DNA of 38,653 bases, from the NCBI GenBank assembly GCA_002256025.1, contig NKIB01015032.1:1-38653 (forward strand), in the 5' to 3' direction. The stretch comes from Asterionella formosa (lineage: Eukaryota). Position 1 is the first letter of the stretch, and each line of letters begins with the position of its first letter. This document shows positions 1 through 38,563 of this stretch, piece after piece. The translations under genes and the position numbers were made by a program. A model generated the notes under the pieces. It was given only the letters and a program-made list of their open reading frames with translations, did not search any database and was not told the origin of the DNA.

Positions 1-17
1 TCCGGAGCTGGAAGTCC

Positions 18-1106
18 ATGCTGGATGGTGCAATGGTTGTGGTTCCGGCGGAGGTGGCGGAGATTCCTCTGCAGGAAGAAGGTGTGATTCAGAGGCAGGT
101 GTTGATGAAAAAAATCGCTCACCCGGGCCGCTCTCCAAAAAGTGCTGCTGATTTCGAAGGATTGAAGACTCTTTTTGACCAGTTGCGGCTTCAAGATAGG
201 GCCTGCACCACCAGGATGCTCAGTGTTGAGCTTAAGAGGCAACCTGGGAACGAAAATGTGTCGCTGAAGGCACTTGAAAAACGGATCAAGCGCTGGCTTG
301 CCCGTGAGGACATTGTCATTAGGCGTGTGACTCGTGTCGCCCAAAATACAAGGCTGGATCAGGAGACAATTCAAGATTTTGTTTCCTACGTCAACAATCA
401 AATTGCTGCGTTCGAATTTCCTGCTGGAAACATTGTCAATATTGATGAGACAAACATCAATTTTGACATGTTTGGATCAAAGACTTTGGCAACCCGAGGC
501 GAAAGGACCATTGGGCTTCGAACAACAGGAAATTCGAATCGTTGCACTGTGTTGTTAGGGGTGACAATGAGTGGTGAGAAGTTGCCACCATTCATTGTAT
601 TTACAGGAACAAGGGATGGACGTATTTCCAGGCAATTGGGATTACTAGACAACAATCAACAACTTTTTCCGGTCAGTATTAAATACGCTTGTCAACCCAA
701 AGCTTGGGTTGATACAGACATATTTTTACAATGGATCGAAAAAGTTTGGCAACCATTTGCGTTGGGAAAAGGCGGTGAGCCTACTCACCTTCTTATGGAT
801 GATTTTACTGTCCACAAGGTAGGACGTTGTGTTGATGCAATTAAAAATTGCGGCACTGAGATTGATTTCGTCCTCCCAGGCTACACATCTAGACTTCAAG
901 TGTTGGATGTAGGAGTTAATAAGCCCTTCAAGGACTACATGAGAGGATATTGGGAAGACTACATGGTTGCCAATGTGGATAATCCCAAGGTGCAAAGGCA
1001 CCACATTGCACAATGGGTAGAGATGGCATGGGCTAGAGTCTCAATTCAAACAATCACCAATACCTGGAAGAGCATTGGATATGAGGGCTTTGCTGATGTT
1101 GACTAG
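18..1106 (+). CDS. pogo-family (Tc1/mariner-related) DDE/D transposase, DD35D type; 5' end probably outside the window
   Basis: Catalytic motifs NIDET, LMDDFTVH and LQVLDVGVNKPFK, with 35 residues between D2 and D3. Also RCTVLLGVTMSGEKLPPFIVF and QPKAWVD motifs, and a CENP-B-like HTH end (IKRWLAR..RRVT). The frame is open back to the window start. Confidence 0.93.
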   Translation: MLDGAMVVVPAEVAEIPLQEEGVIQRQVLMKKIAHPGRSPKSAADFEGLKTLFDQLRLQDRACTTRMLSVELKRQPGNENVSLKALEKRIKRWLAREDIVIRRVTRVAQNTRLDQETIQDFVSYVNNQIAAFEFPAGNIVNIDETNINFDMFGSKTLATRGERTIGLRTTGNSNRCTVLLGVTMSGEKLPPFIVFTGTRDGRISRQLGLLDNNQQLFPVSIKYACQPKAWVDTDIFLQWIEKVWQPFALGKGGEPTHLLMDDFTVHKVGRCVDAIKNCGTEIDFVLPGYTSRLQVLDVGVNKPFKDYMRGYWEDYMVANVDNPKVQRHHIAQWVEMAWARVSIQTITNTWKSIGYEGFADVD

Positions 1107-1345
1107 TCAATAAGGATTGGATTATTTGATAATCTATTTTAACATTTAGTTTTAGTGAAACAATCATTATCGTCAATTAGATTCAGGATGGCATTTCCTA
1201 ATAGGCAAATAAATTAAGCTGATGACTACAAAAAACCCAAAACGGAGTGATTCTAATGCTGAAAATGCTAATTTCTAATACTATTATTAACATTCTAGTG
1301 TAGATTGGTTGAAGTATTCAAAGGCTTGTCCAGTTTTCATAACAT

Positions 1346-1738
1346 CTATTCCTGAATCTGGATGTCCTCAAGAAGCCGGAATGAACAAACTCCAAGGTTA
1401 TTGTGGCTTTTTGCCCTTTTGGCAGCATTTTCACTAGAGTCATAGAGTTCAATAACTTGAGCAAACTTGTTGACAAACTTGTCACTTGTTTTCTTCAAAG
1501 CTGCAATATTCTTGCCAAGGAAACCAACCGTGCACAGTTCCGTCCCATCAAGGATCAGAACAGCCTTGATACCTGCCTGATCAACTCCATCAATCGGGAC
1601 CACTGCTGCCTTGAACCGAACACAATCATTCGGCCTCACAATTGCCCCACAGCAGGCATGCTGCTCACAGCTTCTTCCATTGGTGGTACCTCTGAGGCCA
1701 AGGATTTCGCCATCACGAATGTCGTCCGCAATCATCAT
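1346..1738 (-). CDS. 130-aa transposon passenger protein with a GRSCxxHxxCG motif and a HIRAN-like pattern
   Basis: Intact ATG-to-TAG ORF convergent on the transposase and lying inside the putative right terminus. The pattern ILG..VRF..(A)GIKAV..DG..CTVGFLGKNIA resembles the HIRAN beta-strand signature (by eye). Confidence 0.7.
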   Translation of the reverse strand: MMIADDIRDGEILGLRGTTNGRSCEQHACCGAIVRPNDCVRFKAAVVPIDGVDQAGIKAVLILDGTELCTVGFLGKNIAALKKTSDKFVNKFAQVIELYDSSENAAKRAKSHNNLGVCSFRLLEDIQIQE

Positions 1739-2347
1739 GTTGCCAACCGGTATATGTGACGATATTTTACAGGTGATGATACTTTACCGGAAACAGTAGG
1801 GTACCGGTAATATACGAAAATACATACTAATAAATAGAATACGTTTATGTTGTGTTATTTTTTCTGTACACAGGAAATATTTGGGAGTGTTGCGCCAGAT
1901 GTACAAAGGGGGGTACAGGTATCTGGGGGGATACGAGACACCAGGTTTTACGGTACGCCAGTATACCAGACCAGGTCCAGCGAAGCTAATCATATTTAGC
2001 ACAAACAATATGTGCACACTCGCTCCCCCTTTGCTACATGCACACGTATGTACCGGTAATCATATTGCTGGTACACACTACACCTGGTAGAGTCTGTCGA
2101 ACAAAATAATTTGTTTTCTATTTAAATGTTGACAGATGGAAAGGAGGTGGATTTGTCTCATCCCAAGCGTTTCATTGCCATTCTTACAATATCATCTCTA
2201 TCATCAGTAGTAGTAGTGTTTGTCTGTATATATGAGAGATCTATTCGAAGGAGGCATTGCTCATTGATACTGATAAACTGATTTGACAGGCTCCAATTCA
2301 ACAGATCCGTCATCACTTTTTGGATTCCATTGAAACCAAACAACAAA

Positions 2348-4237
2348 ATGTCGAGACGAGACAAAACGGCGATAGTTGTATCCTTCATGGCTGGCGCAGC
2401 AACGGCAGCATCGTTGATTGTTTGGTTCCTGGGGAAGCGAGACTCAAGTGGTGCCATTGACAAGCAACAAAAGCAGAAGCAGCCAACAGAACAACAGCAA
2501 AATTGGATGGAACCTCTTCTTAGCATGAATGTTGGCGAACTCAAAAATTCTCGAATAGGAGAACTGCCTGACATTTCTCGGTCCAACATGAGATGGCCAT
2601 GGGAGAAGATGCGACAACCAGTGAAGGAACCAAAACAGACTAGTAGTGAAACAGACCACGAGAATCCTATGTTTAAGTCACCTGTCAAGCCTCAGGAAAA
2701 GACTGGACTTTGTATCGGGAGCATCTTTGGATTGGACGTTGGGGGGACACTGGCGAAACTGGTGTATTTTGAGGAACGACAACTAGAAGGATCGGTGCAT
2801 AACGACACTTCGGAGCACGATCCAATTCCTACTGTCCGACGACGAACATCCACAGATGACATTTGGGACATTCGAAAATCAGAACCTCCTCGTGATACAG
2901 AGGTCTTAATGCACGACTATAAACGTCATCAATCCATGCCACCCATTCTTGTTGGTGGTGGTGAGTCGAATCAAACCATGTTTGAGTTGTCCAAATCTCA
3001 TGCAGAAGCTCTTGGACAATTTTACCACTTTGCTCGAACGTTTGATTCCTCGCAAAGTGGATTGAAGGACTCGCATTTATCGTTCTATTCAAGAGAATTG
3101 GGAGGAGACTTTCACTTTATCAGATTCGAGACACAAGACATGGTAACTGCCATGGATTTAATCCGGAATCACAACTTGCATTTGAACATTAGAGAAATGG
3201 GGGCTACAGGTGGTGGGGCACACAAATTTGCTAATGTGTGGGAACGAGTATTGGGAATCGAAATGATGAAGCAAGAAGAATTAGATTCTTTGGTGGCTGG
3301 GATGCAGTTTGTCCTAAGTACTGTTGTCGGCGAATGCTATACCTTCCGACCGAGAATACGAGACTGTGCTATGCCTCCATCAAATGCGCAACCATCAGAT
3401 CATGCATCAGATGGCACAAGTCAACAAAAAGCAGAAGAAAATTCTGATCACGATGCGGAAGTCAAAGATGAATATCAAGGTGACGACTGGTGGTGGTCGA
3501 GAAAGGTGCAGCGAGATGTGGTGTCAGTTTCGGAAACGTATCCCTACCTTTTGGTTAATATTGGAACTGGAGTTAGCATTCTTCGCGTGGATGGACCGCG
3601 GGAGCATGAGCGCATTTCTGGTTCCACCATTGGAGGTGGTACATACTGGGGGCTGATTCGGTTATTGACTGACATTGACGACTTTGAGGCAGTTATGAAA
3701 TTGGCAGAGCGAGGTGACCCGTCCAAGGTGGACATGATGGTAGGAGATATTTATGGCAAGAATAGTGATGCTCTGGAAAAAATTGGGTTGCCGTCCAATC
3801 TTGTTGCTTCTTCGTTTGGAAAATTGGTAGCAAAGCGGGATCCAGCTGTAGGTTTGAAACAAGAAGATTTGGCTAGAGCCCTTCTTCTTATGGTGACCAA
3901 TAACATTGGTCAAGTTGCCTACCTCAATGCAAAGCTGCACAAGACGCCACGAATCTATTTTATCGGTAACTTTCTCCGCGGGAACAAACTATCGCAGCGA
4001 CGATTGTCCTATGCCATAAACTACTGGTCAAAGGGAGAAATGGAGGCCCTATTCTTGGAGCACGAAGGTTATTTTGGAGCGCTTGGTGCTTTTCTTCTGT
4101 CCCAAGGAATTTCTCATAGCGAGAATGGGTTCTTTCAATGGGACAAGTGCCAACAAGCGCCGAGGGATTCATCACCCACCACAACACCTGATGAGGCAGC
4201 CATAAGGAAACATCGAAGGAGCAAAACAACAGGTTAG
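2348..4237 (+). CDS. PANK: Type II (eukaryotic, fumble-like) pantothenate kinase with an N-terminal hydrophobic anchor
   Basis: Motifs GLDVGGTLAKLVYF, ATGGGAHKF, YPYLLVNIGTGVSIL, GSTIGGGTYWGL, VDMMVGDIYG, ASSFGK and FLEHEGYFGALGA. First ATG at 2348 (the ORF track starts at TTG 2330). Confidence 0.95.
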   Translation: MSRRDKTAIVVSFMAGAATAASLIVWFLGKRDSSGAIDKQQKQKQPTEQQQNWMEPLLSMNVGELKNSRIGELPDISRSNMRWPWEKMRQPVKEPKQTSSETDHENPMFKSPVKPQEKTGLCIGSIFGLDVGGTLAKLVYFEERQLEGSVHNDTSEHDPIPTVRRRTSTDDIWDIRKSEPPRDTEVLMHDYKRHQSMPPILVGGGESNQTMFELSKSHAEALGQFYHFARTFDSSQSGLKDSHLSFYSRELGGDFHFIRFETQDMVTAMDLIRNHNLHLNIREMGATGGGAHKFANVWERVLGIEMMKQEELDSLVAGMQFVLSTVVGECYTFRPRIRDCAMPPSNAQPSDHASDGTSQQKAEENSDHDAEVKDEYQGDDWWWSRKVQRDVVSVSETYPYLLVNIGTGVSILRVDGPREHERISGSTIGGGTYWGLIRLLTDIDDFEAVMKLAERGDPSKVDMMVGDIYGKNSDALEKIGLPSNLVASSFGKLVAKRDPAVGLKQEDLARALLLMVTNNIGQVAYLNAKLHKTPRIYFIGNFLRGNKLSQRRLSYAINYWSKGEMEALFLEHEGYFGALGAFLLSQGISHSENGFFQWDKCQQAPRDSSPTTTPDEAAIRKHRRSKTTG

Positions 4238-5219
4238 ACATGTTGGTACTCCCTGTCGCCTCTCAGAGAAAGCCATAAAGGCAAAGTTTTTGGTTACCTT
4301 GCACTCTTATCTCTGGTTACTGGAATAAACAGAGTGCAAACAGCAGTAGGGCATTTTTCTTTGGCTATCAAGAGTTATCACGTTTGTGCTCAGTAATACC
4401 TCTCACGAACCAAATCATGATCATGATGCCTATAGAAAACCATACCATGTTGTTCATAGGATATTTAACGCCTGCTATCAATTTTTACTTCTTTACAATT
4501 TAATTTTTTTTCTAGTCCACATACCGATCATACCACCAGGACGTTTAAGCAGTCTACCTGTACTTGGTAACATATGGAGTCATAGCTTACCGGTATCTCA
4601 TGTCAAGTGAGTTCAGTTTCAAGTTTGGAGTGGTCTCCATGTAATAGAGTCTCGAACTATTCTTTATTGGTGGGAGGATCCATTTGTAGCACCACACTCC
4701 AGCATTATACATAACGTTTCTGTGCACCTTGTTTCTTCCTTTGATCCATCAAGTCTCCTGTTGCTATTGTTGCTACATACATATATGTACCTGTAGGCTA
4801 GAAAGAGAGATCTACTATAGAGTATGGTTTTCATTTGGTACCTGGTAATGGTACCAGTACCCCCCCCCCTAAACTTCGGCCGCTTGTGATCGCTAGGATC
4901 CGAGGCTTCAGAACACACAAATACGATAGTCGTCATGGGAATAAATATTTACCGGTACCGGTATGTACGTGTGCTACATTTGAACCTCGAAATGGAATCT
5001 ATGTACTCAGCTAGGTGCCAATTTCCGCTGATTTAAATATTTCAAATGGAATCATTGTTATTCGCTCATAATTAGTACATAAACATTCCCAGTTCCAGGG
5101 AATTTCAGCAACCCTAAGCAATATACTTAAATTGATTTTTGCCTAGGGTTTCAAATGCATGAACCTTAAAGAAAATTATAATAGCCCACGTATAAATGGT
5201 AAAAAATCTTATCCTTATC

Positions 5220-13765: not shown

Positions 13766-14652
13766 TCTTTGGAATGCGTTGTAATTGTCCTGAATGCGTG
13801 GAATGAATAAGACAACGAGAAATGGGACGGGGGAGGTGGGCCTCTAACGCTCCAGACAGACAAGAAGTGGTCCTTCAGTTGCTTGTTGTAGCAAGATCAC
13901 AGAAAATATTCTGATAGAATGATCCCTGTTGTGACCGCCGTGCAGGTGTGGGAAGGAGAGTAATTCTTGACATTTGTCACCCGCCCATCTCGCATAAGGC
14001 GCCCTCGGCAAGAGTTCAACGGCAGCGAGTGATATCGCGGACTCAAAACTGCGTACCGTAATGCAGCAATATGTTCGATATTCATACACATATGTGTTCA
14101 TAGGAGCAGTTTCCAAATAACCGTTTAAGAGATGCCCGCCATAATTTACCATGATGGCTGGCGTTCATGGGTATAAATCCATGTATGCGAGAGAAGTCTT
14201 GGATGCCAATGAAAAAAATCTTCGTGCTTGCTTGACTGGACACGAGGCAAGAATGACCAGCATCAGTTGTACATATGTACCAGTACATTCCACACGTTTG
14301 TTTATGCCTTTCTTTACCGGTACATTTGCTAAACTTGAATAGATAGGCCGGTGCAGGACATGCTATACGAATGTAAGCAGCATGATGCTGAACACAGCTG
14401 ATGCAGACACTTACCGGTACGCTGATTTTCGTAGAAATGTTCGGACAGCAGTACTGGTAGGAAGGTAGGCCGGTTCTTTGCCGGAAGTCTGAACTTGTGT
14501 TCCTCATTCCCAGCAGTTTATAATTTAACACGGTATTTTCTAGCACTGCTAGGTTGAACTTGGAGTGAATTTTGATCATTCTTTGAGGGAAATACCGGAC
14601 GAACAGCCTTTTCAGTTGTTTTCTCGTGGCATTTTGCATATGCAGCACCTGG

Positions 14653-14805
14653 TACCGTAAATCCTGTGCTCCGGTCTTCCACTACCGGTACATACGCTCC
14701 TTTCTCCTCACTGTACATCTGGTGCTACACACCCAAAATTTACATGTGCAGAAAAGAAAACATATTTTTTTCTATTATGAGATATTTTTTGTATTCGCCG
14801 GTATG
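14653..14805 (+). mobile_element. Solo, diverged terminal fragment related to the pogo element end
   Basis: TACCGTAAATCCTG..TGTACATCTGGTGCTACACACCCAAAATTTACATGTGCAGAAAA versus the reverse complement of 1861-1955: TACCGTAAAACCTG..TGTACATCTGGCGCAACACTCCCAAATATTTCCTGTGTACAGAAAA. Confidence 0.65.
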
Positions 14806-14964
14806 GCTGCAATCACGATCAGGGTACCAGGTACCAGGTACCTAATACCTGGGACGGACCAGGGTCCCGGTAGCCAAAGATTCACTCGTAAGTGCTATGT
14901 AGAAAATTATTATTTAGCTTAAGGAATGCGATTCTTTTGTACATACAAAACACTTAGGTGAAGT

Positions 14965-15399: not shown

Positions 15400-16016
15400 G
15401 TGAAGAAATTTTTCGTCATGCATGATGCACAAAAATCATAGCATGATTTGATTGGCTTGCGGAAATTACTGCAAGACAGAACTTTGTATAACCTACACAA
15501 GATAAATATGTGTGTTGAAATATGTTAATAAAGTTGCATCACTCTAGAAAAAAGAATGTTACTTGTGCTAATTTTCTGGCACACAAGTGCGCCAAAATTT
15601 GGAAAGTCAATTCATCATAGATGTATGACATTCTTTTGCTTTCTAAATTTTAACAAACGCTTTGTCAACTTGTTTTGAATGGTATTCAAAGAATTCGCAA
15701 TGCTTTTTTGGTTTTCTTAATTGAAAAGGGAGCCTTGGAAAGTTCATCCTCTGCGCCAGGGAAATGAATTAGACTCTCTGTTGCAACACCATTGCACAAA
15801 CCCATTATATCTGGAATGTGCAACGGCAAAAGTGACAATGATGGGAAGGAAGAAAATGAAGGTGTATGCGTTTTGAGGATTGGAACCATTAAATATCCAG
15901 TTGAACAGTTGATGTAATTATAACATCTGTTTGACAATGTGCTGAATTAAAGTTATTCCATTCATATAACAATTATGATAGCGATATGCTGTATTCAGTT
16001 TCCAGCAAATATTTAA

Positions 16017-17135
16017 GGTTGCGGCCCAGCAGTTACAAATTGCGAGGTCTGTTTTTTCCCAAATATTTTAATGATGCACATCAATCCACACATCACGTAA
16101 AAGTAAATATAATAGTTAAATGTTAAATTAGCTTTCACCATTACGACCACTTTGCATATGCTTAGATACTGTCATTTCGCGACTTAGGGGTATGATCTAT
16201 ATACAGATATGGTAAGGACCCCATTTCTGGAGAGAAGTGGCAGTTATGTATCATAGATTCATAACTACCGCAAAAATAGTCAAAAAAGGGGCTACGAAGC
16301 TTAAAAAATCTACGATACATAACTGCCACTTCTCTCCAGAAGTTAACTCCTGACGATATAGTAGGGTACACGGCTATCTATTTTAATCGTCATGAAACCC
16401 CGTAGACGTAGAGCAATCCACTTCCAAAAAGTCGACCCGATCGGTTTTTTCATCAGTCGCCAAAATATTGGAATCGGAATTAGTACGTGCAAAAAAGTTC
16501 TCATAGACTTAGAGTCTTGCGTAGTAGGTATGTTTTGCTGAATAATTCTCTGTCCGAAAAGACTCCAGGGTAAGTTCCCGCGTCAATACACATATTCTGA
16601 TTGGTTGAATTGAATTTACTCACCTGCTCCAGATCGGCTGCAGTATCTCGGTCTTGTGAAATTACAATTACGCCAGCCATACTTGCTTGAACCACATGTA
16701 TTAGATGTACTGTACCGGTACCTGGTAGGTAAAATAAGTACTACCGGTAGTTTCATCATCCATCGTCATTAACCAAGATTATGTACTACTGGTACCAGGT
16801 ACCCAGGTACCCTGGTACACCGTTACTCCGGTATAAACGGATTAAAAATATCATGAATAAACATCTAGGCATACTCCTGATTTATATATGTGTTATGGCG
16901 TGGAACAAAATTATGTCTACATCCAGAAACGCAGGTATAGTATTGACGTTTAAATATCATTTTTGTTTGTTTAAAATGGAACTCTGTCTATCTGGCGCCG
17001 ACTCCTATTTAATTCAAATATTCAAATGGACACTCGAATCATGGGAACTCATAGCAGCAAACTCCCTGTTCCATGCCATTTTTACAACCCTAGCGACGTT
17101 TTCTCCAAACTAGGGTTAAGCCGAGGGCCGCAACC
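16017..17135. mobile_element. Non-autonomous TTAA-specific DNA transposon with Kolobok-type termini, 1119 bp
   Basis: TTAA (16013-16016) | GGTTGCGGCCC ... GGGCCGCAACC | TTAA (17136-17139): a perfect 11-bp TIR with GG..CC ends and a TTAA duplication. No credible ORF inside. Confidence 0.75.
16225..16341. repeat. 35-bp inverted repeat with a 47-bp spacer
   Basis: TTCTGGAGAGAAGTGGCAGTTATGTATCATAGATT (16225-16259) and AATCTACGATACATAACTGCCACTTCTCTCCAGAA (16307-16341), 34/35 complementary. Confidence 0.95.
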
Positions 17136-17503
17136 TTAAGTGGCTGGCCAATATAAAACATCATTTTGTGATACCGGTATGTATATGTATGTAAATTTGG
17201 TTTGGATTACAACTGGCAATTTATTTGGATTGGTCTTGTTCGAGGATGACCCCCTTATCGACCAAATATCAGGTATTTGGTCGATTAGACTCCAACAGTA
17301 ACCAAATAAAAGGAGCATTTCTATTGGTTTAGTTTGTGGCTCGCGCCGGCAACCGAACGTTTAGAGTTTAATGAGTGCATACATAATTACAGTACAATCA
17401 TCATAGTCTCTTCATGTAGAACTCAATAGGCCAATGTGATCTTGGTGCGTATACATCATATTGATTCAACATCATAAAACAAAAATCATCATCGTCTGTT
17501 AGG

Positions 17504-18272
17504 ATGGGTCCCGGTGTCACGTGGGAGAAGAAAAAGGACGCAATCACTGGGACTGCACAGAAAGCAAGCAAGTTTTGCAGTAGGGTATTCGAGATTTTTG
17601 TTGAGCTTATCCCAGATGGGAAGGATCGCATCTCAATGGTGTGCACTGTTCGATGGGGAACAATCAATCAAGATGTAACAAAGTTTTGCGGCCTCTTTTC
17701 ACAGGTTACGTCCATTGTTAAGTCAGGATGGACAAACGACAACAAACCTTGAAGAAGCAAGAAGGGAGCTATTTAAATTAGAGGGAAAAGAAAGGAAACT
17801 GGGTAGAGAATTCGTGTTCGAAGGGTGTTGAATATTTTAGGATTCCCCAAAGTGGAAGGGTGGGTGTGGATATGTCCGTGATCAGCAGCAAATCACAAAG
17901 AAGGTTCCTGAGTTACTAGATGTGCGCCCCATGGGGACGAAAGCAGCAAAAGATAGTAGTAAGCTGCTCGCAAATGCTCAGCTTGACATTGAACAAAAAC
18001 ATGTGCATTTGTTGGAAAGAAAGTTGAAGACGCAACGTGATGAATTTTTGTTTAAGATTTTCTCTCTTAATATTAATTCATAGGAATTTAAAAAGTGGTT
18101 TGCTATGAAGGCTCAAGAAGCTATGGAGGAGATGGAGGATAGTTCAAAACCATCACGCAAAAAAACCAAGACCGGTTCTTTGGAGTCAGGCAGTTCAGTT
18201 GAAATCGATATTTCAACTTCTCGTTCATCTTCTACTGATGATGGGGTTTCGATTCTAGAGACTGGACCATAA
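17504..18272 (+). pseudogene. Harbinger Myb/SANT-like (NAM-associated type) DNA-binding ORF, disrupted
   Basis: ITGTAQKASKF..RWGTINQDVTKFCGLFSQV..KSGW..FVFEGC..PKW..RPMGTKAAK, with stops and frameshifts. Confidence 0.85.
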
Positions 18273-18394
18273 GAGTATTAAACTAGTTTGATTGTAGTGA
18301 CATCATTATACTCTTTTTTTCATTGTTGCCAATCTAGATCTTGTATTTTACAGACTTAAAAATATTAATCTAGAACCAAGTTATTATCTACTAT

Positions 18395-18820
18395 TTATTT
18401 CTCGTTTTGAATCCACAAGTACTCAATCAAATTGTTACACAATTGAAAGTGCACACTTTCACTCATGTATTTCATTCTAATATTCTTGAAATCAAGAAAT
18501 GTGTGTACATTGTCATGATTCACATTGTCCACCTAAAATTCATCCTGAATATTGTCAAATAGATATTTAATTTTATTTTTAGTTTCCCACTCATACCTGC
18601 TGATTATTGAGTTACAGAAGTGTTGCAATTTGTTGAGTGTTGTTGACTCTGACATGATCCTTGTTAAATCGTCCAACTGATCAGCCAATGTTCCATACTA
18701 GGCTAACAACGCGAAGCGCCGGGGTAAGTTTTTGTTGTGGAGAAAATCCCAATAAACCCAAGGCATTCTTGTTCTGTGAAAAGTAAGAATCCTAGTAAGC
18801 AACCGAATCATCAAGAACCT
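18395..18820 (-). pseudogene. Harbinger transposase relic with the catalytic core deleted
   Basis: DSYFSQNKNALGLLGFSPQQKLTPALR..YGTLADQLDD..SEST..FC, joined to the C-terminal HFQLCNNLIEYLW. Confidence 0.85.
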
Positions 18821-19834
18821 TTATTTCTATTGGCTAAAAATTTAGGTGCAAGATTTGACTAACATAGGATTTGGTCAATGTAGTGGGGGAAAAAAATTTC
18901 GACTATTGATAAAAAATTTCTCAACCAACAAGTGACATGTATTGATATTTTCAACTGCAATTGGCTTTGGTATTTGGTCGATGTGGTGGCAATGCTCTAA
19001 CACTTGGAAAAATGGTATTTGGAGTTGTTGCTGCAAATTGACACCATGATTTTTGACCAGAGACAGGCAACAAGAACAGCTTCAGCCAAGCTTGATGGTA
19101 CCAGGTACCAGGTACCCTGGTACCAGTACTCCACCGATTTCCTGCTACTGGTACCGGTAGCCCATGTACAGGTACATCAAATCCGTGAAACCAAAAACGT
19201 CCTGCGCATCAGCCTGTAACCAACCCGAATATGGGCAATAGCTCCATGATTCAAACCACCGGTTGTACTTATCACTCCCCAGGAGCTCTTCCATGTTGAG
19301 AACCCATCAATAGCAAGAGCCATTTTCTGGTTTGTCGAATCCATGTCGGGTCAGACGAAGAGTTCGCATTGTGTCTTTGGTGGTTAGAGTTCTCAAATTG
19401 ACGCCAGTAGAAATGTACGACAACCAACATAATTTCATGAGAATTGTGGCTGCCTCAAAGGGAAGTGCAACCCACCAAGTGTGTGCAGAGGGGCAGGACA
19501 GGATGGTTTTTGTCGTCGTTTGCTTTATTACACTAACTATCCTTCTTGTGTCTACTGCAATAATCTACGTCGATATATACTAGCATTCATTTTAGTTCAA
19601 GTGTGGTATTCTAAATACCTAGAAACATATACTACTACAGCGACGAAGGCCATGACGCTGGTCTCTACCATTGGCAGTTCTTACCATTCCACCTCCATCG
19701 CCTCATCCATTGCCATCTGCCCTAGCAGCAGCAGCAGCAGCAACAGCAGCAACAGTCGTCCTAACTAGTTTCTGCAGACGACAGCAACAGGTCTCAGCGA
19801 AGCATCAGCGCTTCCACCAATTCAGACCGCGGAG

Positions 19835-21531
19835 ATGACTGTAGGAGGCACAACGCCATCCAAGGATGAGCATCCGAAGTCAAATTGTGGTTCGCAACCG
19901 CCCCACGAGCCCGCGCTGGTCCGCGAACCGACGCCTCTGCTAGCGAATCCGCAGCAACAGGCATATCCACAAGACGAACAACAACAACAACAACAACAAC
20001 TGGGCTTGATGCCTAATCATCACTACATTATGCCCCATGGATTTGCGGCTACTCCGCTGGTAACTCCTCTGGCAGCTCCGTTGCAGTCCCCACCGAGTCC
20101 GAATCAACAACTGCAACACCAGCCACAACAGCTAGAGCACGAGGAAGATGAAGACGACAACGAGGACAACGTCACCATCAACAGGAAGAAGAAGCGCGGT
20201 GTCCCGCACATTTACCATGACTACTGCTCTGTACAAGACACCATGGGCTTTGTCCGAAAAAAGACGGGAGGGGTGACGCAGGCATTTCCAGAAAAACTCA
20301 TGGACATGCTCACTGCAGAATCCGACAACCAGACTCTGGTAGGTTGGCTCCCACATGGACGCGCCTTTATTGTTAGAAAGCCAAAGCAGTTCACGGATGA
20401 AATCATGCCCAAGTACTTTAGGCAGTCCAAGCTCACATCATTTCAGCGGCAACTGAACCTCTATGGCTTTAGAAGACTCACACAAGGCGCTGATGCCGGG
20501 GCGTACTATCATGAGCTGTTCCTGAGGGGCAGGCCTCAGTTATGTCAGAGAATGAATCGACAAAAGGTCAAGGGGACGGGGCACAAGCAACCAGCAGATG
20601 CACAAACAGAGGTGAGAGTTTTTGAAAATAGTACTGTTCCTTTCTTTCGTTTTCTGTGGTGTCCTTCGTTTCTATCGCAAAATCTCACTTAAACACGATT
20701 ATACTCACCACACACCAGCCCAATTTTTACGTCATGCCGACTGCACCAGAGCCAACTTACATTGCACATGCAAGTTCGGGCATTCAAGGGTTACAAGGGG
20801 CTGCTGATTTGTTAAAAGGATTTGCGTCGAGCATGCCTGTCACCAACCTCAGTGGAACAACATGGCCTGCACCAATACAAATGACAGCACCTGCCCCAGG
20901 TGTACACCATCAGTACATTTACAATACTGTCTCTGCACAGAATACACATCAGCAGCAGCAAACACAAGTTGTGTACACACAAGGCCCCAATGGACAACCA
21001 CAGATGCAACAAATCATTTATGCTCCAGCTCAAACTCAAGCCTCCGTCACATTGGGATCGGATGGACAATATTATCTTACAACCACACCAACATATACAC
21101 TGCCAAATCCTACTACGACTCATCCTGGAGAACAACTTCAACAACAGCAATATACATCGGCACCTGGGGCATCCATGATTTCATATGCTCCTCAAGATAA
21201 TTCGGCATATTCATCAGCTCCTACGATTCAGTTTGTTTGGCCACAGCAGTTGCAGCAACAACAGCAATCATGGATCCAACAAGCTCAACAAATTCAACAG
21301 ATTTCACAACCTGGTTCGTCGTCTCAATTAGACCAAGGAACGCAGCAACAGCAGAAGTCTCAGCAACAACAAGAGGCTCAGCAACAGCAGCTGCAGACTC
21401 AGCAGCAACAACAGCAGGCTGAACAACAGTATCGTTCATCCCAACAGTTTTTACAACAAGGGGAAGAGCAGCAAGTTCAGGAGGTGACCTACGCACAGCA
21501 ATCCCCTGCCGCTGTGGCTTCCACTTTATAA
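19835..21531 (+). CDS. Heat-shock transcription factor (HSF) with Gln-rich tails; exons 19835-20611 and 20719-21531
   Basis: HSF DNA-binding domain (FPEKLMDML..VGWLPHGRAFIV..FRQSKLTSFQRQLNLYGF..YYHELFLRGRP). A 107-bp GT..CTCAC..CAG intron (20612-20718) restores TE|PNFY in frame. The 5' end is uncertain. Confidence 0.93.
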
Positions 21532-24852: not shown

Positions 24853-26727
24853 TCAACTCCATCTACTTTTCTTCGCTGGAGGTGCAGCGCTCAAGCTCCA
24901 CGACGGACAGTTCCTCTCTGAAGCTAAAGTCTCATCACTGAATCCAATTCCCGATTTGTTCCTCCTAGGGTCAACGTTTCCGGATCGCCGGCTCTTGCCT
25001 GCTAGTTGCTTCAATTCCAACGACACGTCTCGTGCTTCTCTTTCAAAGGCGTTCATTAATACGTGAGCAAAGTCCGCATTTTTATGTGTCAATAATGTAT
25101 AGGCTGTTCCTTGTCTATGCTCTTGGCTATCCTTCGCAAGTCTCCCCGCTCGTCCAACTCTATGTGTGTGCACATCAAGATTCTTTGCTGCATCAAAATT
25201 GATAACCGTCGATACGTTTGCAATATCTAATCCTCTTGATGCCACATCTGTAGCAATCAAAATCAGTACTTTGCCATTAGCAAAGGCTTTTAGGGCCGCT
25301 TGTCTATCTGATGGGTGTTTGTCACCATGTAAAGTCTCAAGGATGAGTGTTGGATTTTGTTGTCGAATGACATCAGCGACTGACTCGCAATCTACTCGTG
25401 TCGACACAAATACAATTGTGCTCCCCAAATTCTCCAAAACAGGCAACATCTGAACAAGCCATTCCTTTTTGGCATCATAGGAAGGGAGTACCATGACATG
25501 TTGCTGAACATGTTCACTAGCTTCTCCTGTTTTTCCCACGGAAATGCGAACCGGATTTTGTAGCCATTTTTTAGTCACTTGCTCTACCTTTCTTCCCATG
25601 GTTGCACTGATCAACATGGATTGTCGGTCTGGTCGTACATTTTTCAGTATTTCCGTTACTTGTGATTCAAATCCCATATCCAACATTTTGTCAGCTTCAT
25701 CCAGAACCACCATAGTGACACGACGCAATGAAATTCCATTTTTTTTAATTGCCAATACATCCAAGAATCTCCCTGGTGTTGCCACAACAAGTTCGCATCC
25801 TCGCTTTGCAAAATCTTGAACAAGATGATACCTTCCCACTCCACCAGTAATGGCAATGGACTTTCCCTTGAGTGCTTGTACCATAATTTGTGCCTGTTTT
25901 TGTACTTGCATGGCCAATTCCCTTGTCGGCACCAATACAAGTCCAATGGGCCCTTCTCCAGGTAGTAATTCTCTTTGATCACAGCAATGCACTACCATGG
26001 GCCAAATGTATGCCAATGTTTTTCCAGATCCTGTTGATGCTGTAATGAGACAATCCTTTCCAGCCAATGCTACTGCAAGTGTCTGTGACTGTACCAGGGT
26101 TGGTTTCTGATAACCTCGCGATTGTATGACACCAAACAATTCATTTCCCAAAATATCCTTTATCTCATCAAAGTCAAGGATAGGATCCATCGTCCCTGGC
26201 GTGCATGTCACATTATGTTGATTACGCCACGAATGTCCCTTGACAGAATCACTCCCTTTGCCAAATTCCTTGTGGAAGGGTTCATACGGAATTAAGTCAT
26301 GTTGGACTTGTTCCAATGTAAAAGGCGATTGCTTTTGTTGTTGATGTGTGGCCTGTACAAAACCAATGGATGCCCATGCTGCATCTTGTGCTGTTACTGC
26401 TGCTGATGCATATTTTGTATTATTTTCTTGATGAAGCGATGTTTCTGATTTTGTCTCTAATGTTGGTGCTGCTGTCAGTGGTTCATTCATCCAATGACTT
26501 GTTGCTTCTTCAGCATTTTCAACGTCGAGTCTCTCTGGCTTGTAATGATTGTAGTTGGCAGCAGTAGCAGTAGCAGAAGCAGTAATGGAAGCAGTAGTCA
26601 CAATGGAAGCATTGTCCAACGACTTCATGTACGCATCGAGGGGATCTTCTTGATCATCATCTTCTACTTGCTGTTGCTGCTGATGCTGCTCAGGTTCGTC
26701 TTCGTCGCTGTCATCGAACCATCCCAT
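24853..26727 (-). CDS. DDX42: DEAD-box RNA helicase, DDX42-like
   Basis: Q motif, TGSGKT, PTRELA, TPGR, DEAD, SAT, TDVASRGLDI and HRVGRAGR, plus N-terminal DPLDAYM and YEPFHK. First ATG at 26727. The helicase call is firm; the DDX42 orthology is less certain. Confidence 0.85.
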   Translation of the reverse strand: MGWFDDSDEDEPEQHQQQQQVEDDDQEDPLDAYMKSLDNASIVTTASITASATATAANYNHYKPERLDVENAEEATSHWMNEPLTAAPTLETKSETSLHQENNTKYASAAVTAQDAAWASIGFVQATHQQQKQSPFTLEQVQHDLIPYEPFHKEFGKGSDSVKGHSWRNQHNVTCTPGTMDPILDFDEIKDILGNELFGVIQSRGYQKPTLVQSQTLAVALAGKDCLITASTGSGKTLAYIWPMVVHCCDQRELLPGEGPIGLVLVPTRELAMQVQKQAQIMVQALKGKSIAITGGVGRYHLVQDFAKRGCELVVATPGRFLDVLAIKKNGISLRRVTMVVLDEADKMLDMGFESQVTEILKNVRPDRQSMLISATMGRKVEQVTKKWLQNPVRISVGKTGEASEHVQQHVMVLPSYDAKKEWLVQMLPVLENLGSTIVFVSTRVDCESVADVIRQQNPTLILETLHGDKHPSDRQAALKAFANGKVLILIATDVASRGLDIANVSTVINFDAAKNLDVHTHRVGRAGRLAKDSQEHRQGTAYTLLTHKNADFAHVLMNAFEREARDVSLELKQLAGKSRRSGNVDPRRNKSGIGFSDETLASERNCPSWSLSAAPPAKKSRWS

Positions 26728-27363
26728 AATGAACAAGACTATTATACATGTAACAAGTGGAAGTGATGATGAATGATTTCATAGGAGTCGATGCGAAATG
26801 ACGAATGATGGTGGACTTTTCGTTGAGGAATAATAATACCGACCGGTACGCACAATGGCTGATGAATGAGTGGGCATAAAAACCATGCCACAACAACAAG
26901 ACTCTACATATTCTACCTGACACGGGGTACTGCACCAGGTACTGTGTTATTTTGATGATAATGTATACTTGTATACGTATTTGTATATTATATGATCCTA
27001 ATATTCTCTCTGACAAACATCATCAATGAAAAGGATAAATACTGGCATATCAGGAAATCTAAGATAGTAAAATTATTGCCGGTAGACAATGATATGTACT
27101 ATTACACCCCCTTTATCCCGACATCGAGTACCGGTGCCGTTACTGGTATCTATTCTTACGTAGCCCACCATCATCATCAACCTCGATAGAGCAACGACGA
27201 AGAATGCTGATGCCTCGATTCAAATCCATTGTTTCATGAACATCCTTCACACTCTTCTCTCCTGCTGATGCAGTACAATGTCAATGTATGTCTATGGCCA
27301 ACAACACAATACACGCTACCCCGTACCCTCAACAACGCTACATTCATTATCGTTTTATAGCAA

Positions 27364-33685: not shown

Positions 33686-34540
33686 CTTTCAAGTGGAAAT
33701 ATACTCACTCTGGCTCTCCTTCCACCTAGGCTGCAGGCTCTACTGTGTCAAAATAGACAGGTTTCTCGTTTAGTTGGGTCTGCCTTTTGTTGTGTTGGGC
33801 GCAAAGGTACCTTAGTGCCTCTTACCGTTTATGGAGTCCTAGATTCTTATGCAGGCATGTCTGCAATGGGGTCTGATGTTGCGTCTACTTTACTATACAC
33901 ATGTATATACGCACCTGCTTCACAGCAATCGTACAAAACGTTTTGGCGATGTAATTTCAGTCGCTCATCGAATGACAAGTCGTGATCAATGACGGAAAGC
34001 AAGCCGGCGTCACCAAATCAATTAGTGGTATCGTAACTGGTACTATCCTAAAAGTACCCAGTACTAAGTTATGGCTATTATATGTGCCCAGTACTGCAGC
34101 CACTCGCAAAAACACCGGCATGATGACCTTGGAGTACAATCAATGCCAGCAACGCCTATACCAGGCACACTACCATCAAATAACAATACCAGTACGTGCT
34201 GGTATTTTAATTTCGAATGATAACCTTGTGTATATCATAGCTAGTAGCATTGCCATAACCACCAAGCCAATTGGAGTTGCAGCTCATGAGACGTCATGTT
34301 AGTCGAAAAAAGCAAAAATATTTTAGCCACTGCATTGACCAAGATCTAACATGCTTTGGTCTTGGCCAAGGATGAAACCCCCCCCCCCTCCATATCAAAC
34401 AAATATCAGGTGTTTAGTCGATTAGACTCACAATTAGATTCTGACCATAGCCAAATACTAAAAGAAGCAATTCTATTGGTTGAGATTGTTGCTTGATGTG
34501 CATATTGAGTCAACGTCATAAAATAATAATCATCCTCAGG

Positions 34541-35546: not shown

Positions 35547-35619
35547 GTCGTTTCATTAATTTTATTATCACCCATCCTCTAGAGCTTAAATTTTACACTT
35601 CAATCAAATTATTATCTAC

Positions 35620-36137
35620 TATTTGTCCTTGTTTGAGTCCACAAGTGCTCAATCAAATTATTTCGCAATTGAAAGTGACGTCCAATGATTAAAAAATCCC
35701 TGGCCAAGCAACCCTTTCCCTCATCCAACATAGAATCATCTCAAGGTCCTCTTAGGTCGGAGCTCTCAGATTGTCTTTCCCATATCTGTTGATTACTGTT
35801 TTTATAGAAGTGTTGCAGATTGTGAGTGTTGTTTACTCTGCCATTCTTGTTAAATTGTCCAACTGATCCGCCAATATTACATAAGCTAACATGCGAAGAA
35901 CCAAGGTAAGTTTTTGGTTGGCGAAAATCCCAGCAAACCAAAGGCAACCTGCCTTCATCTGAGAAAATATGAATCCGAAGCAACCAAATCATCAAGAATC
36001 TTCTCAAACAATGACCGTTGCATCAGGAAGCGCCTCCTGAAAATTGCCATAGAGTAAATCAGGTTTTCACGGAAAAAATGCTTTTTCAAAAGCTTGTCAT
36101 AGTCTGTCCGAAAATGATTGAGATTGGACTGTTTGGG
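35620..36137 (-). pseudogene. Harbinger transposase relic
   Basis: YDKLLKKHFFRENLIYSMAIFRRRFLMQRSLFEKILDD..DSYF..LRMLAY..ADQLD..LRAPT*EDL..WPGIF*SLD, fused directly to HFQLRNNLIEHLW. Confidence 0.88.
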
Positions 36138-38519: not shown

Positions 38520-38563
38520 TACCTGGTACCTGGTACCTGGTACCGGTACCATGGTACCTGGTA
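38520..38563. repeat. 7-bp (TACCTGG)n / GGTACC tandem array
   Basis: TACCTGGTACCTGGTACCTGGTACCGGTACCATGGTACCTGGTA. Similar arrays occur near 4837, 14823, 16713, 16791 and 19097. Confidence 0.9.

What the first reader, a model, noticed from the sequence alone, without database searches (positions are those of the whole stretch)
1..1955. Two-gene pogo transposon carrying a HIRAN-like, Cys/His-containing passenger protein
Seen: an intact DD35D transposase and an intact convergent 130-aa ORF, both inside the putative right terminus (..TTTTACGG|TA). The ORF has GRSCEQHACCG plus a later C, H and C, and a HIRAN-like strand pattern ending VGFLGKNIA. Established: pogo/Tc1-mariner elements normally encode only a transposase, and HIRAN domains (HLTF/Rad5) bind free 3' DNA ends at stalled forks. 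Inference: this may be a transposon subfamily with an accessory DNA-end-binding, possibly zinc-binding, protein that influences targeting or repair of the donor site. Both ORFs being intact among decayed TEs suggests recent activity.
Basis: partly seen in the sequence, partly recalled or inferred. Interest (0 to 1): 0.8.

Follow-up and report, generated by a model that had tools for sequence, protein, structure and literature searches.

The report
Two-gene pogo transposon with HIRAN-like gene
This is the right-hand part of a recently active cut-and-paste DNA transposon that, unusually for its kind, carries a second conserved gene for a small, probably zinc-binding protein shaped like a domain that grips DNA ends.

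Summary
Window 3-1106 (+) encodes the C-terminal 367 aa of a DDE_1/pogo transposase with DD35D spacing; the window start cuts off its N-terminus. Window 1346-1738 (-) is an intact, convergent 130-aa ORF. The element ends at 1953 in a 26-nt inverted repeat followed by TA.

A complete 2.44-kb copy in a metagenome contig (L002) has both inverted repeats around both genes. Three diverged subfamilies show the same layout: terminus, small gene 155-215 bp inside it, convergent transposase. Small-protein identity falls to 42% and transposase identity to 38%.

The small protein belongs to a large unnamed family (1258 clusters). It is under purifying selection (dN/dS about 0.1-0.14 between subfamilies). 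C24, H27, C30 and C69 are each kept in 99-101 of 102 sequences.

A pLDDT-94 model finds only HIRAN structures at the top of two fold searches (Z 6.7, 6.1, 5.1; next 4.4). A profile-profile comparison with bona fide HIRAN domains gives P 2-5e-5, against controls of 0.27-0.71. It misses the Pfam HIRAN threshold and lacks the NPxDxNA motif at the aligned columns.

Verdict: a real two-gene pogo lineage with a divergent HIRAN-like accessory protein. Its role at DNA ends is inferred, not shown.

The parts
3..1106 (+). C-terminal 367 codons plus stop of the pogo-type DDE_1 transposase (DD35D). Catalytic Asp codons are at 444-446, 798-800 and 906-908. The N-terminal ~40 codons (HTH region) lie upstream of the window.
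   Evidence: ORF list. Pfam DDE_1 E 1.1e-22. Invariant D188/D306/D342 in 38 relatives. 97-99% identical full-length relatives P0061/P0062. The HTH_Tnp_1 and BrkDBD matches on the P0062 N-terminus are weak and sub-threshold.
1107..1345 (.). AT-rich spacer of 239 bp between the 3' ends of the two convergent genes.
   Evidence: Sequence. Conserved at 98% in L001/L002/L003.
1346..1738 (-). Second gene: 130-aa HIRAN-like protein with the conserved C24-x2-H27-x2-C30 ... C69 set (stop codon at 1346-1348).
   Evidence: ORF. Family. AF2 model pLDDT 94. Fold searches. hhalign. dN/dS.
1739..1927 (-). 189-bp region between the terminal repeat and the small gene's ATG. It is presumably the gene's promoter/5' UTR. 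It contains C-rich subterminal repeats (..GTATCCCCCC..CTGTACCCCCC.. on the - strand).
   Evidence: Sequence. Similar subterminal GTCCTGCACCCC/GTCCTGGACCCCCC repeats occur in subfamilies B and D. The promoter role is inference.
1928..1953 (-). Right terminal inverted repeat, 26 nt (5'-CCGTAAAACCTGGTGTCTCGTATCCC on the - strand).
   Evidence: Matches both ends of L002. Single exact occurrence in the window. Shared CCRTAWA start in all four subfamilies.
1954..1955 (.). TA target-site dinucleotide flanking the element.
   Evidence: TA abuts the terminus at all 9 termini on the small-gene side that were examined, and at the far end of L010. The far end of L002 has TG instead. Flanks diverge after 1955-1956 in independent copies and contigs.

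Best explanation
Window 1-1955 is the right-hand 80% of a 2.44-kb autonomous DNA transposon of the pogo superfamily. Its features are a DDE_1 transposase with DD35D spacing, 26-nt terminal inverted repeats beginning CCGTAAAACC, and TA target sites. The host is a freshwater eukaryote, probably a stramenopile.

Unlike ordinary pogo/Tc1-mariner elements, this lineage carries a second gene as a stable part of the element. The gene is convergent to the transposase and starts about 155-215 bp inside one terminus. Its 130-aa product is a single-domain protein of a large, unnamed family. The domain is a divergent HIRAN-type fold. The loop after the first strand has been rebuilt into a Cys-x2-His-x2-Cys knuckle which, together with Cys69, most likely binds a zinc ion.

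Shown here:
- the element's anatomy;
- the conserved linkage across subfamilies;
- purifying selection on the small gene;
- the fold resemblance to HIRAN and the remote profile similarity;
- conservation of the four Cys/His residues;
- recent mobility;
- presence of both genes in RNA libraries.

Inferred mechanism (about 40% likely). The protein is a transposon-encoded DNA-binding accessory factor that recognises the DNA ends made during cut-and-paste transposition. Those ends could be the 3'-OH transposon ends or the 3' overhangs left at the donor site. Binding would either stabilise the excised element for integration or steer repair of the donor gap, and so raise the element's transmission.
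For: ANATOMY. DDE_1 matches at E 1.1e-22. D188/D306/D342 are invariant, giving DD35D. The complete copy L002 has a 29-nt, 93% complementary inverted repeat at 78-106 and 2491-2519 enclosing both genes. L010, whose small protein is 57% identical, has TA+CCATAAATCCCGTGCT at both ends enclosing both genes.

LINKAGE.
- Of 16 metagenome loci, 10 have whole, partial or remnant transposase convergent and downstream of the small ORF (L001-L005, L007-L010, L015).
- Five others end 1-157 bp after the ORF, so they cannot show a transposase.
- One (L012) has only a minisatellite in its 750 bp downstream.
- L005-L011 share flanks and count as one locus.
- All 9 termini examined on the small-gene side show TA+CCRTAWA 155-215 bp upstream of the ORF, with unrelated flanks.
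- Identities fall together for small protein and transposase: 60/50% (L004), 57-60/49% (L005), 42/38% (L015).

SELECTION. Window vs L004: pN 0.306, pS 0.733, dN/dS about 0.14. L012 vs L014: pN 0.164, pS 0.665, dN/dS about 0.11. L012 vs L013: dN/dS 0.24.

FAMILY. 1258 representatives at E<=1e-3 and 561 at <=1e-10. C24 is kept in 99/102, H27 in 100/102, C30 in 101/102 and C69 in 101/102 sequences.

FOLD.
- The model has pLDDT 94.0 and pTM 0.86.
- VIA-align over 48,161 chains puts 3k2y_A first (Z 6.7, rmsd 3.5, 92 aligned), then the HLTF HIRAN chain 4xzg_A (Z 6.1, rmsd 4.2, 88 aligned, 23% id) and Rad5 6l8o_A residues 181-290 (Z 5.1, rmsd 3.9, 84 aligned). The next hit has Z 4.4 and rank 50 has Z 2.5.
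- Foldseek ranks 1-5 and 7-10 are HLTF HIRAN chains, with prob 0.95-1.00.
- 3k2y is itself HIRAN by sequence: a profile of 30 PF08797 domains hits it at E 3.4e-17.

PROFILE-PROFILE. Family vs 30-31 bona fide HIRAN domains gives Prob 68-75% and P 4.8e-5 / 2.4e-5. The alignment pairs V..GD.vRfk...E.AIK.V...CTVGFlPR with L..GE.L.L.REP.N..D.NAI.v...lGYL.r. Reversed and unrelated controls give P 0.27-0.71.

ACTIVITY. Copies 97-99% identical sit at three different flanks (window, L001, L002). Further flank variants appear in contigs. 20 runs from 13 studies hold the sequence.

RNA. Contigs of four metatranscriptomes from four studies cover both genes. For example, X16 record 15 spans 1340-1937 and X18 record 17 spans 1-1132.
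Against: Sequence similarity to HIRAN is sub-threshold. No family member reaches the Pfam HIRAN cut-off: 2 of 29 match at best E 0.11 and 1 of 102 at E 0.12. A family profile finds no HIRAN chain in the PDB at E<=10.

Foldseek E-values are only 0.05-0.17, with TM 0.43-0.51 and none at <=1e-3. The tool's own note says Z under 8 can reflect a common arrangement.

At the aligned columns the family does not keep the invariant N41 and D44 of the HIRAN profile's NPxDxNA motif. The conserved E54 (80/102) lies one column away. By my recollection of the HLTF structures, that motif lines the 3'-end pocket, so end-binding in the HIRAN manner is not assured.

Zinc binding rests on conservation alone. I could not measure distances in the model.

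RNA-library contigs show neither strand nor true transcription, and DNA carry-over is possible.

The context evidence comes from 16 short metagenome contigs representing about 10 independent insertions. Contexts of the other roughly 1200 family clusters could not be fetched.

One complete copy has TG instead of TA at its far end.

Subfamily C is a dead copy, with an in-frame stop in the small ORF and a broken transposase.
Confidence: 0.62

Rival explanations
1. The element is a two-gene pogo transposon as described, but the small protein does not work like HIRAN. It would be a new zinc-binding small beta-barrel with another job for the element, such as a transposition regulator or inhibitor, an anti-silencing factor, or a site-specific DNA-binding partner for the subterminal repeats (as the Myb-like ORF of PIF/Harbinger is, by recall).
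For: The NPxDxNA motif of HIRAN is not kept at the aligned columns. The HIRAN similarity is sub-threshold by Pfam, and Z is only 5-7. The most conserved feature, the C-H-C-C set, is absent from HIRAN. C-rich subterminal repeats exist that some protein must read.
Against: All three HIRAN representatives top the unbiased fold search, with a gap to the next hit. The profile-profile P of 2-5e-5 stands against null controls. The alignment is collinear from IVGL/VVGV to VGFLPR/lGYL.r. The transposase has its own N-terminal HTH for repeat recognition, though those matches are weak.
Confidence: 0.25
2. The small ORF is a host gene captured by chance (a passenger) that hitch-hikes without benefit to the element.
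For: The family includes longer forms (200-315 aa) with acidic, disordered N-terminal extensions. These might be host genes. The deletion derivative L001 and the L007-L009 variants keep the ORF without a working transposase.
Against: Position, orientation and distance to the terminus are the same in four subfamilies whose transposases are only 38-50% identical. Purifying selection acts between subfamilies, with dN/dS 0.11-0.14. No locus was found outside a transposon context. A one-off capture would not persist through that much divergence.
Confidence: 0.08
3. The ORF is a chance open frame or antisense artefact, and the element is an ordinary one-gene pogo.
For: The window protein has no Pfam match. 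The gene is short.
Against: There are 60 and 1258 relatives. Eleven columns are conserved in 90% or more of 102 sequences. pN is far below pS. The fold is confidently predicted, with pLDDT 94.
Confidence: 0.01

Closest known systems
pogo superfamily DNA transposons with DD35D transposases (Passer and Fot/Fot-like families; Gao et al. 2020, PMC7386202, passages read)
   Same: DDE_1 catalytic domain, DD35D spacing, N-terminal HTH region, short terminal inverted repeats, TA target site and a size of 2.4 kb. The paper reports Passer and Fot-like elements in stramenopiles, and says almost all of both families are DD35D.
   Different: The paper describes pogo elements as having one or two ORFs 'encoding transposases'. 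It mentions no separate accessory protein. Here a second, unrelated, convergently oriented gene is conserved across subfamilies. I did not place the transposase in a named pogo family by phylogeny.
HIRAN domain (Pfam PF08797; HLTF, Rad5, bacterial and phage stand-alone proteins such as lp_0118, PDB 3k2y)
   Same: Same size and overall fold (top three fold matches). The motifs are collinear: IVGL with VVGV, GD.vRf with GE.L.L, AIK.V with NAI.V, and CTVGFlPR with lGYL.r..A. It stands alone as a small protein, as many bacterial and phage HIRANs do; several of the 79 matching genomes have open frames of 97-250 aa.
   Different: It fails the Pfam threshold. It lacks the REP..NPxDxNA signature at the aligned columns. 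It has a five-residue insert carrying an invariant Cys-x2-His-x2-Cys plus a fourth Cys in the strand before VGF. It is encoded inside a eukaryotic transposon. No fusion to SNF2 or nuclease domains was found.
DNA transposons that need a second, non-transposase protein (PIF/Harbinger Myb-like ORF, MuDR mudrB, En/Spm TnpA/TnpD; ciliate Tec/TBE three-ORF Tc1/mariner relatives)
   Same: The element has two genes, and the accessory gene co-diverges with the transposase. Tec/TBE show that relatives of Tc1/mariner can carry extra ORFs (PMC7325037, passages read).
   Different: The accessory proteins are unrelated. Those of Harbinger, MuDR and En/Spm are recalled, not checked here. None is HIRAN-like as far as my searches show.

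Membership tests
pogo superfamily (IS630-Tc1-mariner group) | DDE_1-type catalytic domain | tested here: met
   PF03184 at E 1.1e-22, 80.9 bits against a cut-off of 22. P0062 gives E 6.3e-23.
pogo superfamily (IS630-Tc1-mariner group) | DDD triad with family-typical spacing (DD35D in Passer and Fot/Fot-like) | tested here: met
   D188, D306 and D342 are invariant in 38 sequences, leaving 35 residues between the last two. The family spacings come from PMC7386202.
pogo superfamily (IS630-Tc1-mariner group) | Terminal inverted repeats flanked by a TA target-site duplication | tested here: met
   Inverted repeats in L002 (29 nt, 93%) and L010 (18 nt, 94%). TA lies at both ends of L010 and at all 9 termini examined on the small-gene side. 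The far end of L002 has TG. The window's own left end lies outside the window.
pogo superfamily (IS630-Tc1-mariner group) | N-terminal helix-turn-helix DNA-binding domain (CENP-B_N / HTH_Tnp / Brk type) | tested here: inconclusive
   Only sub-threshold matches on the full-length relatives: HTH_Tnp_1 E 1.8e-4 (22.1 bits, cut-off 24.1), BrkDBD E 4.7e-3, CENP-B_N E 1.1e-3. Precomputed Pfam labels on relatives list PF01527, PF13518 and PF04218. This part lies outside the window.
pogo superfamily (IS630-Tc1-mariner group) | Phylogenetic placement of the transposase within a named pogo family | not tested
HIRAN domain (PF08797) | Match to the Pfam HIRAN model above its gathering score (24.7 bits) | tested here: not met
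   None of 29 and none of 102 family members reaches it. Best E 0.11 (2 of 29) and 0.12 (1 of 102).
HIRAN domain (PF08797) | HIRAN fold | tested here: met
   The pLDDT-94 model has as its top three of 48,161 chains 3k2y_A (Z 6.7), HLTF 4xzg_A (Z 6.1) and Rad5 6l8o_A residues 181-290 (Z 5.1); the next hit is 4.4. Foldseek gives prob 0.95-1.00 but E 0.05-0.17. The scores are moderate.
HIRAN domain (PF08797) | Remote sequence homology by profile-profile comparison | tested here: inconclusive
   hhalign Prob 68% with P 4.8e-5, and Prob 75.5% with P 2.4e-5, over 44 columns. Controls give P 0.27-0.71. This is suggestive but below the usual 90-95% probability.
HIRAN domain (PF08797) | Conserved REP..NPxDxNAI signature (N41, D44 and A47 invariant in 30 bacterial HIRAN domains) | tested here: not met
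   Only A47 and the following I have counterparts (A56 in 74/102, I57 in 52/102). The columns aligned to N41 and D44 are not conserved. E54 (80/102) lies one column off D44.
HIRAN domain (PF08797) | Binding of free 3'-OH DNA ends | not testable with these tools
   Needs biochemistry. The tools gave no residue-level superposition on the HLTF-DNA complexes.
Zinc-binding (Cys3His) module | Four invariant Cys/His ligands | tested here: met
   C24 in 99/102, H27 in 100/102, C30 in 101/102 and C69 in 101/102 sequences. The neighbouring C29 is kept in only 51/102.
Zinc-binding (Cys3His) module | Ligands close together in space, and metal bound | not testable with these tools
No metal-aware prediction was run.

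The most novel reading that the evidence does not exclude
A whole lineage of pogo-type transposons, widespread in freshwater and marine protists (1258 protein clusters), encodes its own HIRAN-derived, zinc-stabilised DNA-end-binding factor. It acts on the 3' ends produced by cut-and-paste transposition. It would be the first dedicated DNA-end-handling accessory protein in the IS630/Tc1/mariner/pogo group. It would also be a transposon counterpart of the HIRAN modules that HLTF and Rad5 use at stalled forks, so the element brings its own repair or end-protection function rather than relying on the host.
Probability: 0.35. Interest if true: 0.8.

Novelty: new variant of a known kind. Interest (0 to 1): 0.64.

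Why it matters
Tc1/mariner/pogo elements are the textbook minimal transposons: one gene and two repeats. They are also the basis of gene-transfer tools such as Sleeping Beauty and Passer. A pogo lineage that has kept a second, selected gene through deep divergence shows that the minimal design is not universal.

The lineage also offers a natural system for asking how a cut-and-paste element manages its DNA ends or the donor break. The accessory protein defines a large protein family that carries no Pfam label in the copy used here. That family links the HIRAN fold to a new metal-binding variant. If the protein improves transposition or donor repair, it could matter for transposon tool design.

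Tried and rejected
- Complex prediction on transposase P0062 plus the small protein returned no verdict (score 0.00, controls not run). It counts neither for nor against binding.
- Single-sequence and profile searches of the PDB by sequence found no HIRAN chain. The best hits were AhpC at E 0.13 and glucocorticoid receptor at E 0.29, judged chance.
- PHROGs gave nothing consistent over 102 members.
- In BFVD the best E was 0.015, for an unnamed protein. Named HIRAN proteins appeared only at ranks 10, 23 and 40 with E>0.1.
- The ESM Atlas scored 0.77-0.78, below the level the tool calls meaningful. One cluster had HIRAN on 23% of its members, which is a lead only.
- The search for longer, fused forms (553-2000 aa) found none, which the tool itself calls weak evidence.
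- The exhaustive search's top 150 include forms up to 315 aa whose N-terminal extensions are acidic, low-complexity and without a Pfam domain.
- Neither viral contigs nor prokaryotic genome contigs matched the family's most conserved peptide pattern. These were single-pattern scans, so they do not prove absence.
- No whole genome is held for the window, and earlier findings were not open.
- dN/dS among the near-identical copies (window, L001-L003) rests on only 1-5 differences and says nothing.
- I considered that L012 might be a transposase-free context. I rejected this because its downstream 750 bp is a minisatellite whose unit also sits between the two genes of L015.
- Parts of the laid stretch had no RNA-contig cover (for example 2002-2088). 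I did not interpret these.
- Literature searches found no paper describing a HIRAN-like gene in a pogo/Tc1/mariner element. Most 'HIRAN' hits did not look relevant from their listings. Subscription journals and Repbase Reports are not in the library, and no supplements were opened.
Full report
WHAT IS IN THE SEQUENCE

Window 3-1106 on the + strand is an open frame that runs in from the window's first bases and ends at a TAG. Its 367 residues match Pfam DDE_1 (PF03184, E 1.1e-22, 80.9 bits against a cut-off of 22) and, more weakly, DDE_3.

I aligned 38 relatives headed by P0062, a 419-aa protein 97% identical to the window's. The invariant acidic residues are D188, D306 and D342, so the last two catalytic residues are separated by 35 positions (DD35D). 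In the window these are codons 444-446, 798-800 and 906-908.

Window 1346-1738 on the - strand is an ATG-to-stop frame of 130 codons, convergent to the transposase across a 239-bp spacer. It has no Pfam match.

THE ELEMENT'S BOUNDARIES

A search of metagenome contigs with the small-protein alignment returned 16 loci.

- L002 (2730 bp) aligns with window 1-1956 at 98% identity. Window 1928-1956 also matches the other end of L002 in inverted orientation.
- The repeat finder gives a 29-nt, 93% complementary inverted repeat at L002 78-106 and 2491-2519.
- Read with its flanks, the element in L002 is 2436 bp: a 26-nt repeat (CCGTAAAACCTGGTGTCTYGTATCCC), about 370 bp, a transposase ORF of about 408 codons, the spacer, the small gene, about 190 bp, then the other repeat.
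- The window therefore holds the right-hand 1953 bp and lacks about 488 bp on the left, including the first ~40 codons of the transposase.

The right end is confirmed independently.

- Similarity to L001 and L002 stops at window 1956, and their flanks differ from the window's and from each other.
- Among the loose ends listed for four metatranscriptomes, contigs run on into mutually different sequence after 1955 (6 contigs), 1956 (3), 1957 (1) and 1953 (1).
- The dinucleotide at 1954-1955 is TA.

THE SAME ARCHITECTURE IN DIVERGED ELEMENTS

The 16 loci fall into four groups.

- A: L001-L003, 97-99% identical to the window.
- B: L004, small protein 60% and transposase 50% identical to the window's.
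- C: L005-L011, 57-60% and about 49%.
- D: L012-L016, 42-47%, with the L015 transposase at 38%.

tblastn with the window transposase and with 115 relatives finds transposase sequence convergent and downstream of the small ORF in 10 of the 16 loci: L001-L005, L007-L010 and L015. Of the other six, L006, L011, L013, L014 and L016 end 157, 15, 1, 94 and 1 bp after the ORF. L012 has 750 bp of a roughly 70-bp minisatellite, whose unit also lies between the two genes of L015.

L005-L011 share flanking DNA far beyond the element, so they are one genomic locus seen in several samples. The independent insertions therefore number about ten.

On the small-gene side, all nine termini I read show TA followed by CCGTAAAA, CCGTATAC, CCATAAAT or CCATAAAAA. 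These are the window, L001, L002, L004, L010, L012, L013, L014 and L016. Each lies 155-215 bp upstream of the ORF's start, with unrelated sequence before the TA.

L010 has the repeat with TA at both ends (2151-2168 and 4360-4377, 18 nt, 94%), enclosing both genes. The one exception to TA is the far end of L002, which reads TG.

No locus shows the small gene outside such an element.

THE SMALL PROTEIN IS A REAL, SELECTED GENE OF A LARGE FAMILY

- The word-indexed search found 60 relatives from 98% down to 39% identity. All lack a functional name; at most they are labelled 'hypothetical protein'.
- The exhaustive profile search found 1258 cluster representatives at E<=1e-3, 561 at <=1e-10 and 35 at <=1e-30.
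- Most of the 150 listed are 90-170 aa. Some reach 315 aa through acidic, low-complexity N-terminal extensions without any Pfam domain.
- In 102 aligned sequences, the columns conserved in 90% or more are G14, G21, R22, C24, H27, C30, G31, C69, F73, Y99 and G116.
- By count, C24 is kept in 99, H27 in 100, C30 in 101 and C69 in 101 of 102 sequences.
- Nei-Gojobori counts show purifying selection between subfamilies. Window vs L004 gives pN 0.306, pS 0.733, ratio about 0.14. L012 vs L014 gives 0.164, 0.665, about 0.11. L012 vs L013 gives 0.24. The near-identical copies differ at too few sites to say anything.
- Not all copies are alive. The subfamily C locus has an in-frame stop after VQH and a transposase broken into several frames. 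L014 has a deviant C-terminus.

FOLD AND RELATIONSHIP TO HIRAN

A first AlphaFold model from 29 sequences had pLDDT 78.8. A second from 102 sequences had pLDDT 94.0 and pTM 0.86, with all five models at 92 or more.

Fold searches:
- For both models, Foldseek against the PDB ranks HLTF HIRAN chains first. For the second model these are ranks 1-5 and 7-10, with E 0.049-0.17, probability 0.95-1.00, TM 0.43-0.51 and 16-23% identity. No hit reaches E<=1e-3.
- The Foldseek-independent VIA-align search of 48,161 representative chains gives, for the second model: 3k2y_A (Z 6.7, rmsd 3.5, 92 residues), HLTF HIRAN 4xzg_A (Z 6.1, rmsd 4.2, 88 residues, 23% identity) and Rad5 6l8o_A residues 181-290 (Z 5.1, rmsd 3.9, 84 residues).
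- Below these come OB domains of capping enzymes at Z 4.4 and 3.8, and rank 50 has Z 2.5.
- The tool warns that Z below 8 can be a common arrangement. What speaks for a real relationship is that the three top rows are three different HIRAN proteins and stand clear of the rest.

Sequence-level test:
- I collected bona fide HIRAN domains by searching Pfam PF08797 in 401 genomes of one bacterial phylum. 79 genomes had a match above the cut-off. I aligned 30 of them as A4.
- That profile hits 3k2y_A at E 3.4e-17 and the HLTF HIRAN chains at about 1e-15. This verifies that 3k2y is a HIRAN protein.
- hhalign of the family against A4 gives probability 68% and P 4.8e-5 over 44 columns. With the family alignment trimmed to the domain it gives 75.5% and P 2.4e-5.
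- Reversed alignments and the transposase alignment give P 0.27-0.71 and probability 0.2% or less.
- The aligned core pairs V..GD.vRfk...E.AIK.V...CTVGFlPR with L..GE.L.L.REP.N..D.NAI.v...lGYL.r..a. A relaxed alignment is collinear from IVGL/VVGV to the last strand.

Evidence against membership:
- No family member reaches the Pfam HIRAN threshold. 2 of 29 match at best E 0.11, and 1 of 102 at E 0.12.
- The family profile finds no HIRAN chain by plain HMM search of the PDB.
- The invariant N41 and D44 of the bacterial HIRAN set (the NPxDxNA motif) have no conserved counterpart at the aligned columns. A conserved Glu (E54, 80 of 102) lies one column away in a loop of variable length.
- Relative to HIRAN, the family has a five-residue insert after the first strand that carries C24, H27 and C30.

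My reading is that this is a divergent branch of the HIRAN fold, probably homologous (about 0.8), with a new Cys3His site. It is not a member of Pfam HIRAN as defined.

ACTIVITY AND EXPRESSION

- Subfamily A copies are 97-99% identical and sit at different sites.
- An internal-deletion form lacking window 532-1108, the catalytic core, but keeping the small gene occurs in L001 and in contigs of two RNA libraries (joint 529->1109).
- The stretch is held by 20 runs from 13 studies. These are freshwater, riverine, lake, estuary and algae metagenomes plus a coded organism. Six are RNA libraries.
- Contigs of the four metatranscriptomes I laid, from four studies, cover both genes. X16 record 15 spans 1340-1937, X20 record 24 spans 1279-1705, X18 record 17 spans 1-1132, and X15 records cover 1-293 and 561-1872 in pieces.
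- Contigs show neither strand nor level, and DNA can contaminate RNA libraries. This is therefore compatible with expression but is not proof.

HOST

The rest of the window carries ordinary eukaryotic genes in long single exons. They include pantothenate kinase (Fumble), an HSF-type factor, a DEAD-box helicase, an amine oxidase and a CRAL/TRIO protein. The nearest Atlas cluster to the pantothenate kinase is commonest in Oomycota (score 0.96). Together with the habitats, this suggests a freshwater stramenopile. I did not pursue it further.

HOW IT MOST LIKELY WORKS

Shown: the small gene is an integral, selected component of a pogo-type transposon lineage.

Inferred: its product binds DNA through a HIRAN-like surface stabilised by zinc. 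By established knowledge (recalled, not tested here), HIRAN domains of HLTF and Rad5 bind free 3' DNA ends. Tc1/mariner/pogo transposases leave 3'-OH transposon ends and short 3' overhangs at the donor.

The most economical hypothesis is that the protein engages one of these ends. It would either protect or deliver the excised element, or bias repair of the donor gap. I put this at about 40%.

A different DNA-binding or regulatory role for the element is the main rival, at about 25%. That could be reading the C-rich subterminal repeats, inhibiting transposition, or countering silencing. A functionless passenger is unlikely, at about 8%.

A complex prediction with the transposase gave no verdict and is not used.

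COMPARISON WITH WHAT IS KNOWN

Gao et al. [quoted passage not shown] Both families are present in stramenopiles.

Dupeyron et al. 2020 (PMC7325037; passages read) note that DNA transposons may contain additional ORFs. They cite the three-ORF Tec/TBE elements of ciliates.

Six full-text searches found no description of a HIRAN-like or Cys/His accessory gene in pogo or Tc1/mariner elements. The library lacks most subscription journals and Repbase Reports, and I opened no supplements, so Gao et al.'s element tables were not checked.

I therefore rate this a new variant of a known kind: a pogo lineage with a conserved accessory gene that defines a protein family without a Pfam label.

Noticed in passing
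window 14650-14782 and 15400-15614: Relic of a related element of the L010 type (subfamily C). It has a terminus TA+CCGTAAATCCTGTGCTCC at 14653 and a second block 78% identical to the region upstream of the L010 transposase start. No small-ORF or transposase coding similarity is left, and no right terminus was found within 15615-15900.
   Followed up: partly
window 17237-19002 and 34387-35883: Two copies of another repeat of about 1.5 kb, 79-89% identical in eight collinear blocks spaced about 17.1-17.4 kb apart. They are unrelated to the pogo element and were not identified.
   Followed up: no
window 1853-1953 (contigs of runs X15 and X20): Contigs in two RNA libraries join a different upstream sequence to the last ~100 bp of the element at 1853. 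Summed contig depth is highest over the terminal bin 1915-2001. This suggests short derivatives (MITE-like) or a sister element sharing the terminus.
   Followed up: no
L001 1-60 (flank of the subfamily A copy): A subfamily B-type terminus (TACCGTATACTTCATTGTCCTGGACCCCCC) lies about 40 bp from the end of the subfamily A element. Different subfamilies therefore coexist and cluster in one genome.
   Followed up: no
L012 617-1366: A minisatellite with a unit of about 70 bp (AT-rich, ..GATCAATAATAATAATTGGTGGATTGTCGGCTCGGT..) lies directly downstream of the small gene. One unit of it sits between the two genes in L015.
   Followed up: partly
window 14825-14855, 16782-16811, 19104-19133, 38533-38563; also the flanks of L007-L010: GGTACC-rich low-complexity motifs (TACCAGGTACCAGGTACC and similar) recur around transposon remnants in the window and in the metagenome loci. 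Their origin is unknown.
   Followed up: no
P0062 versus window 1104-1106 / L002 921-923: The 419-aa relative P0062 reads through the position of the transposase stop codon (W instead of stop) and gains 12 residues. It is a copy-specific variant.
   Followed up: no
window 2330-4237, 19835-20692, 24853-26736, 27364-29832, 37229-38071: Host genes in long single exons: pantothenate kinase (Fumble, E 2e-112), an HSF-type DNA-binding protein, a DEAD-box helicase, a flavin amine oxidase and a CRAL/TRIO protein. The transposon sits about 380 bp upstream of the pantothenate kinase ORF.
   Followed up: partly
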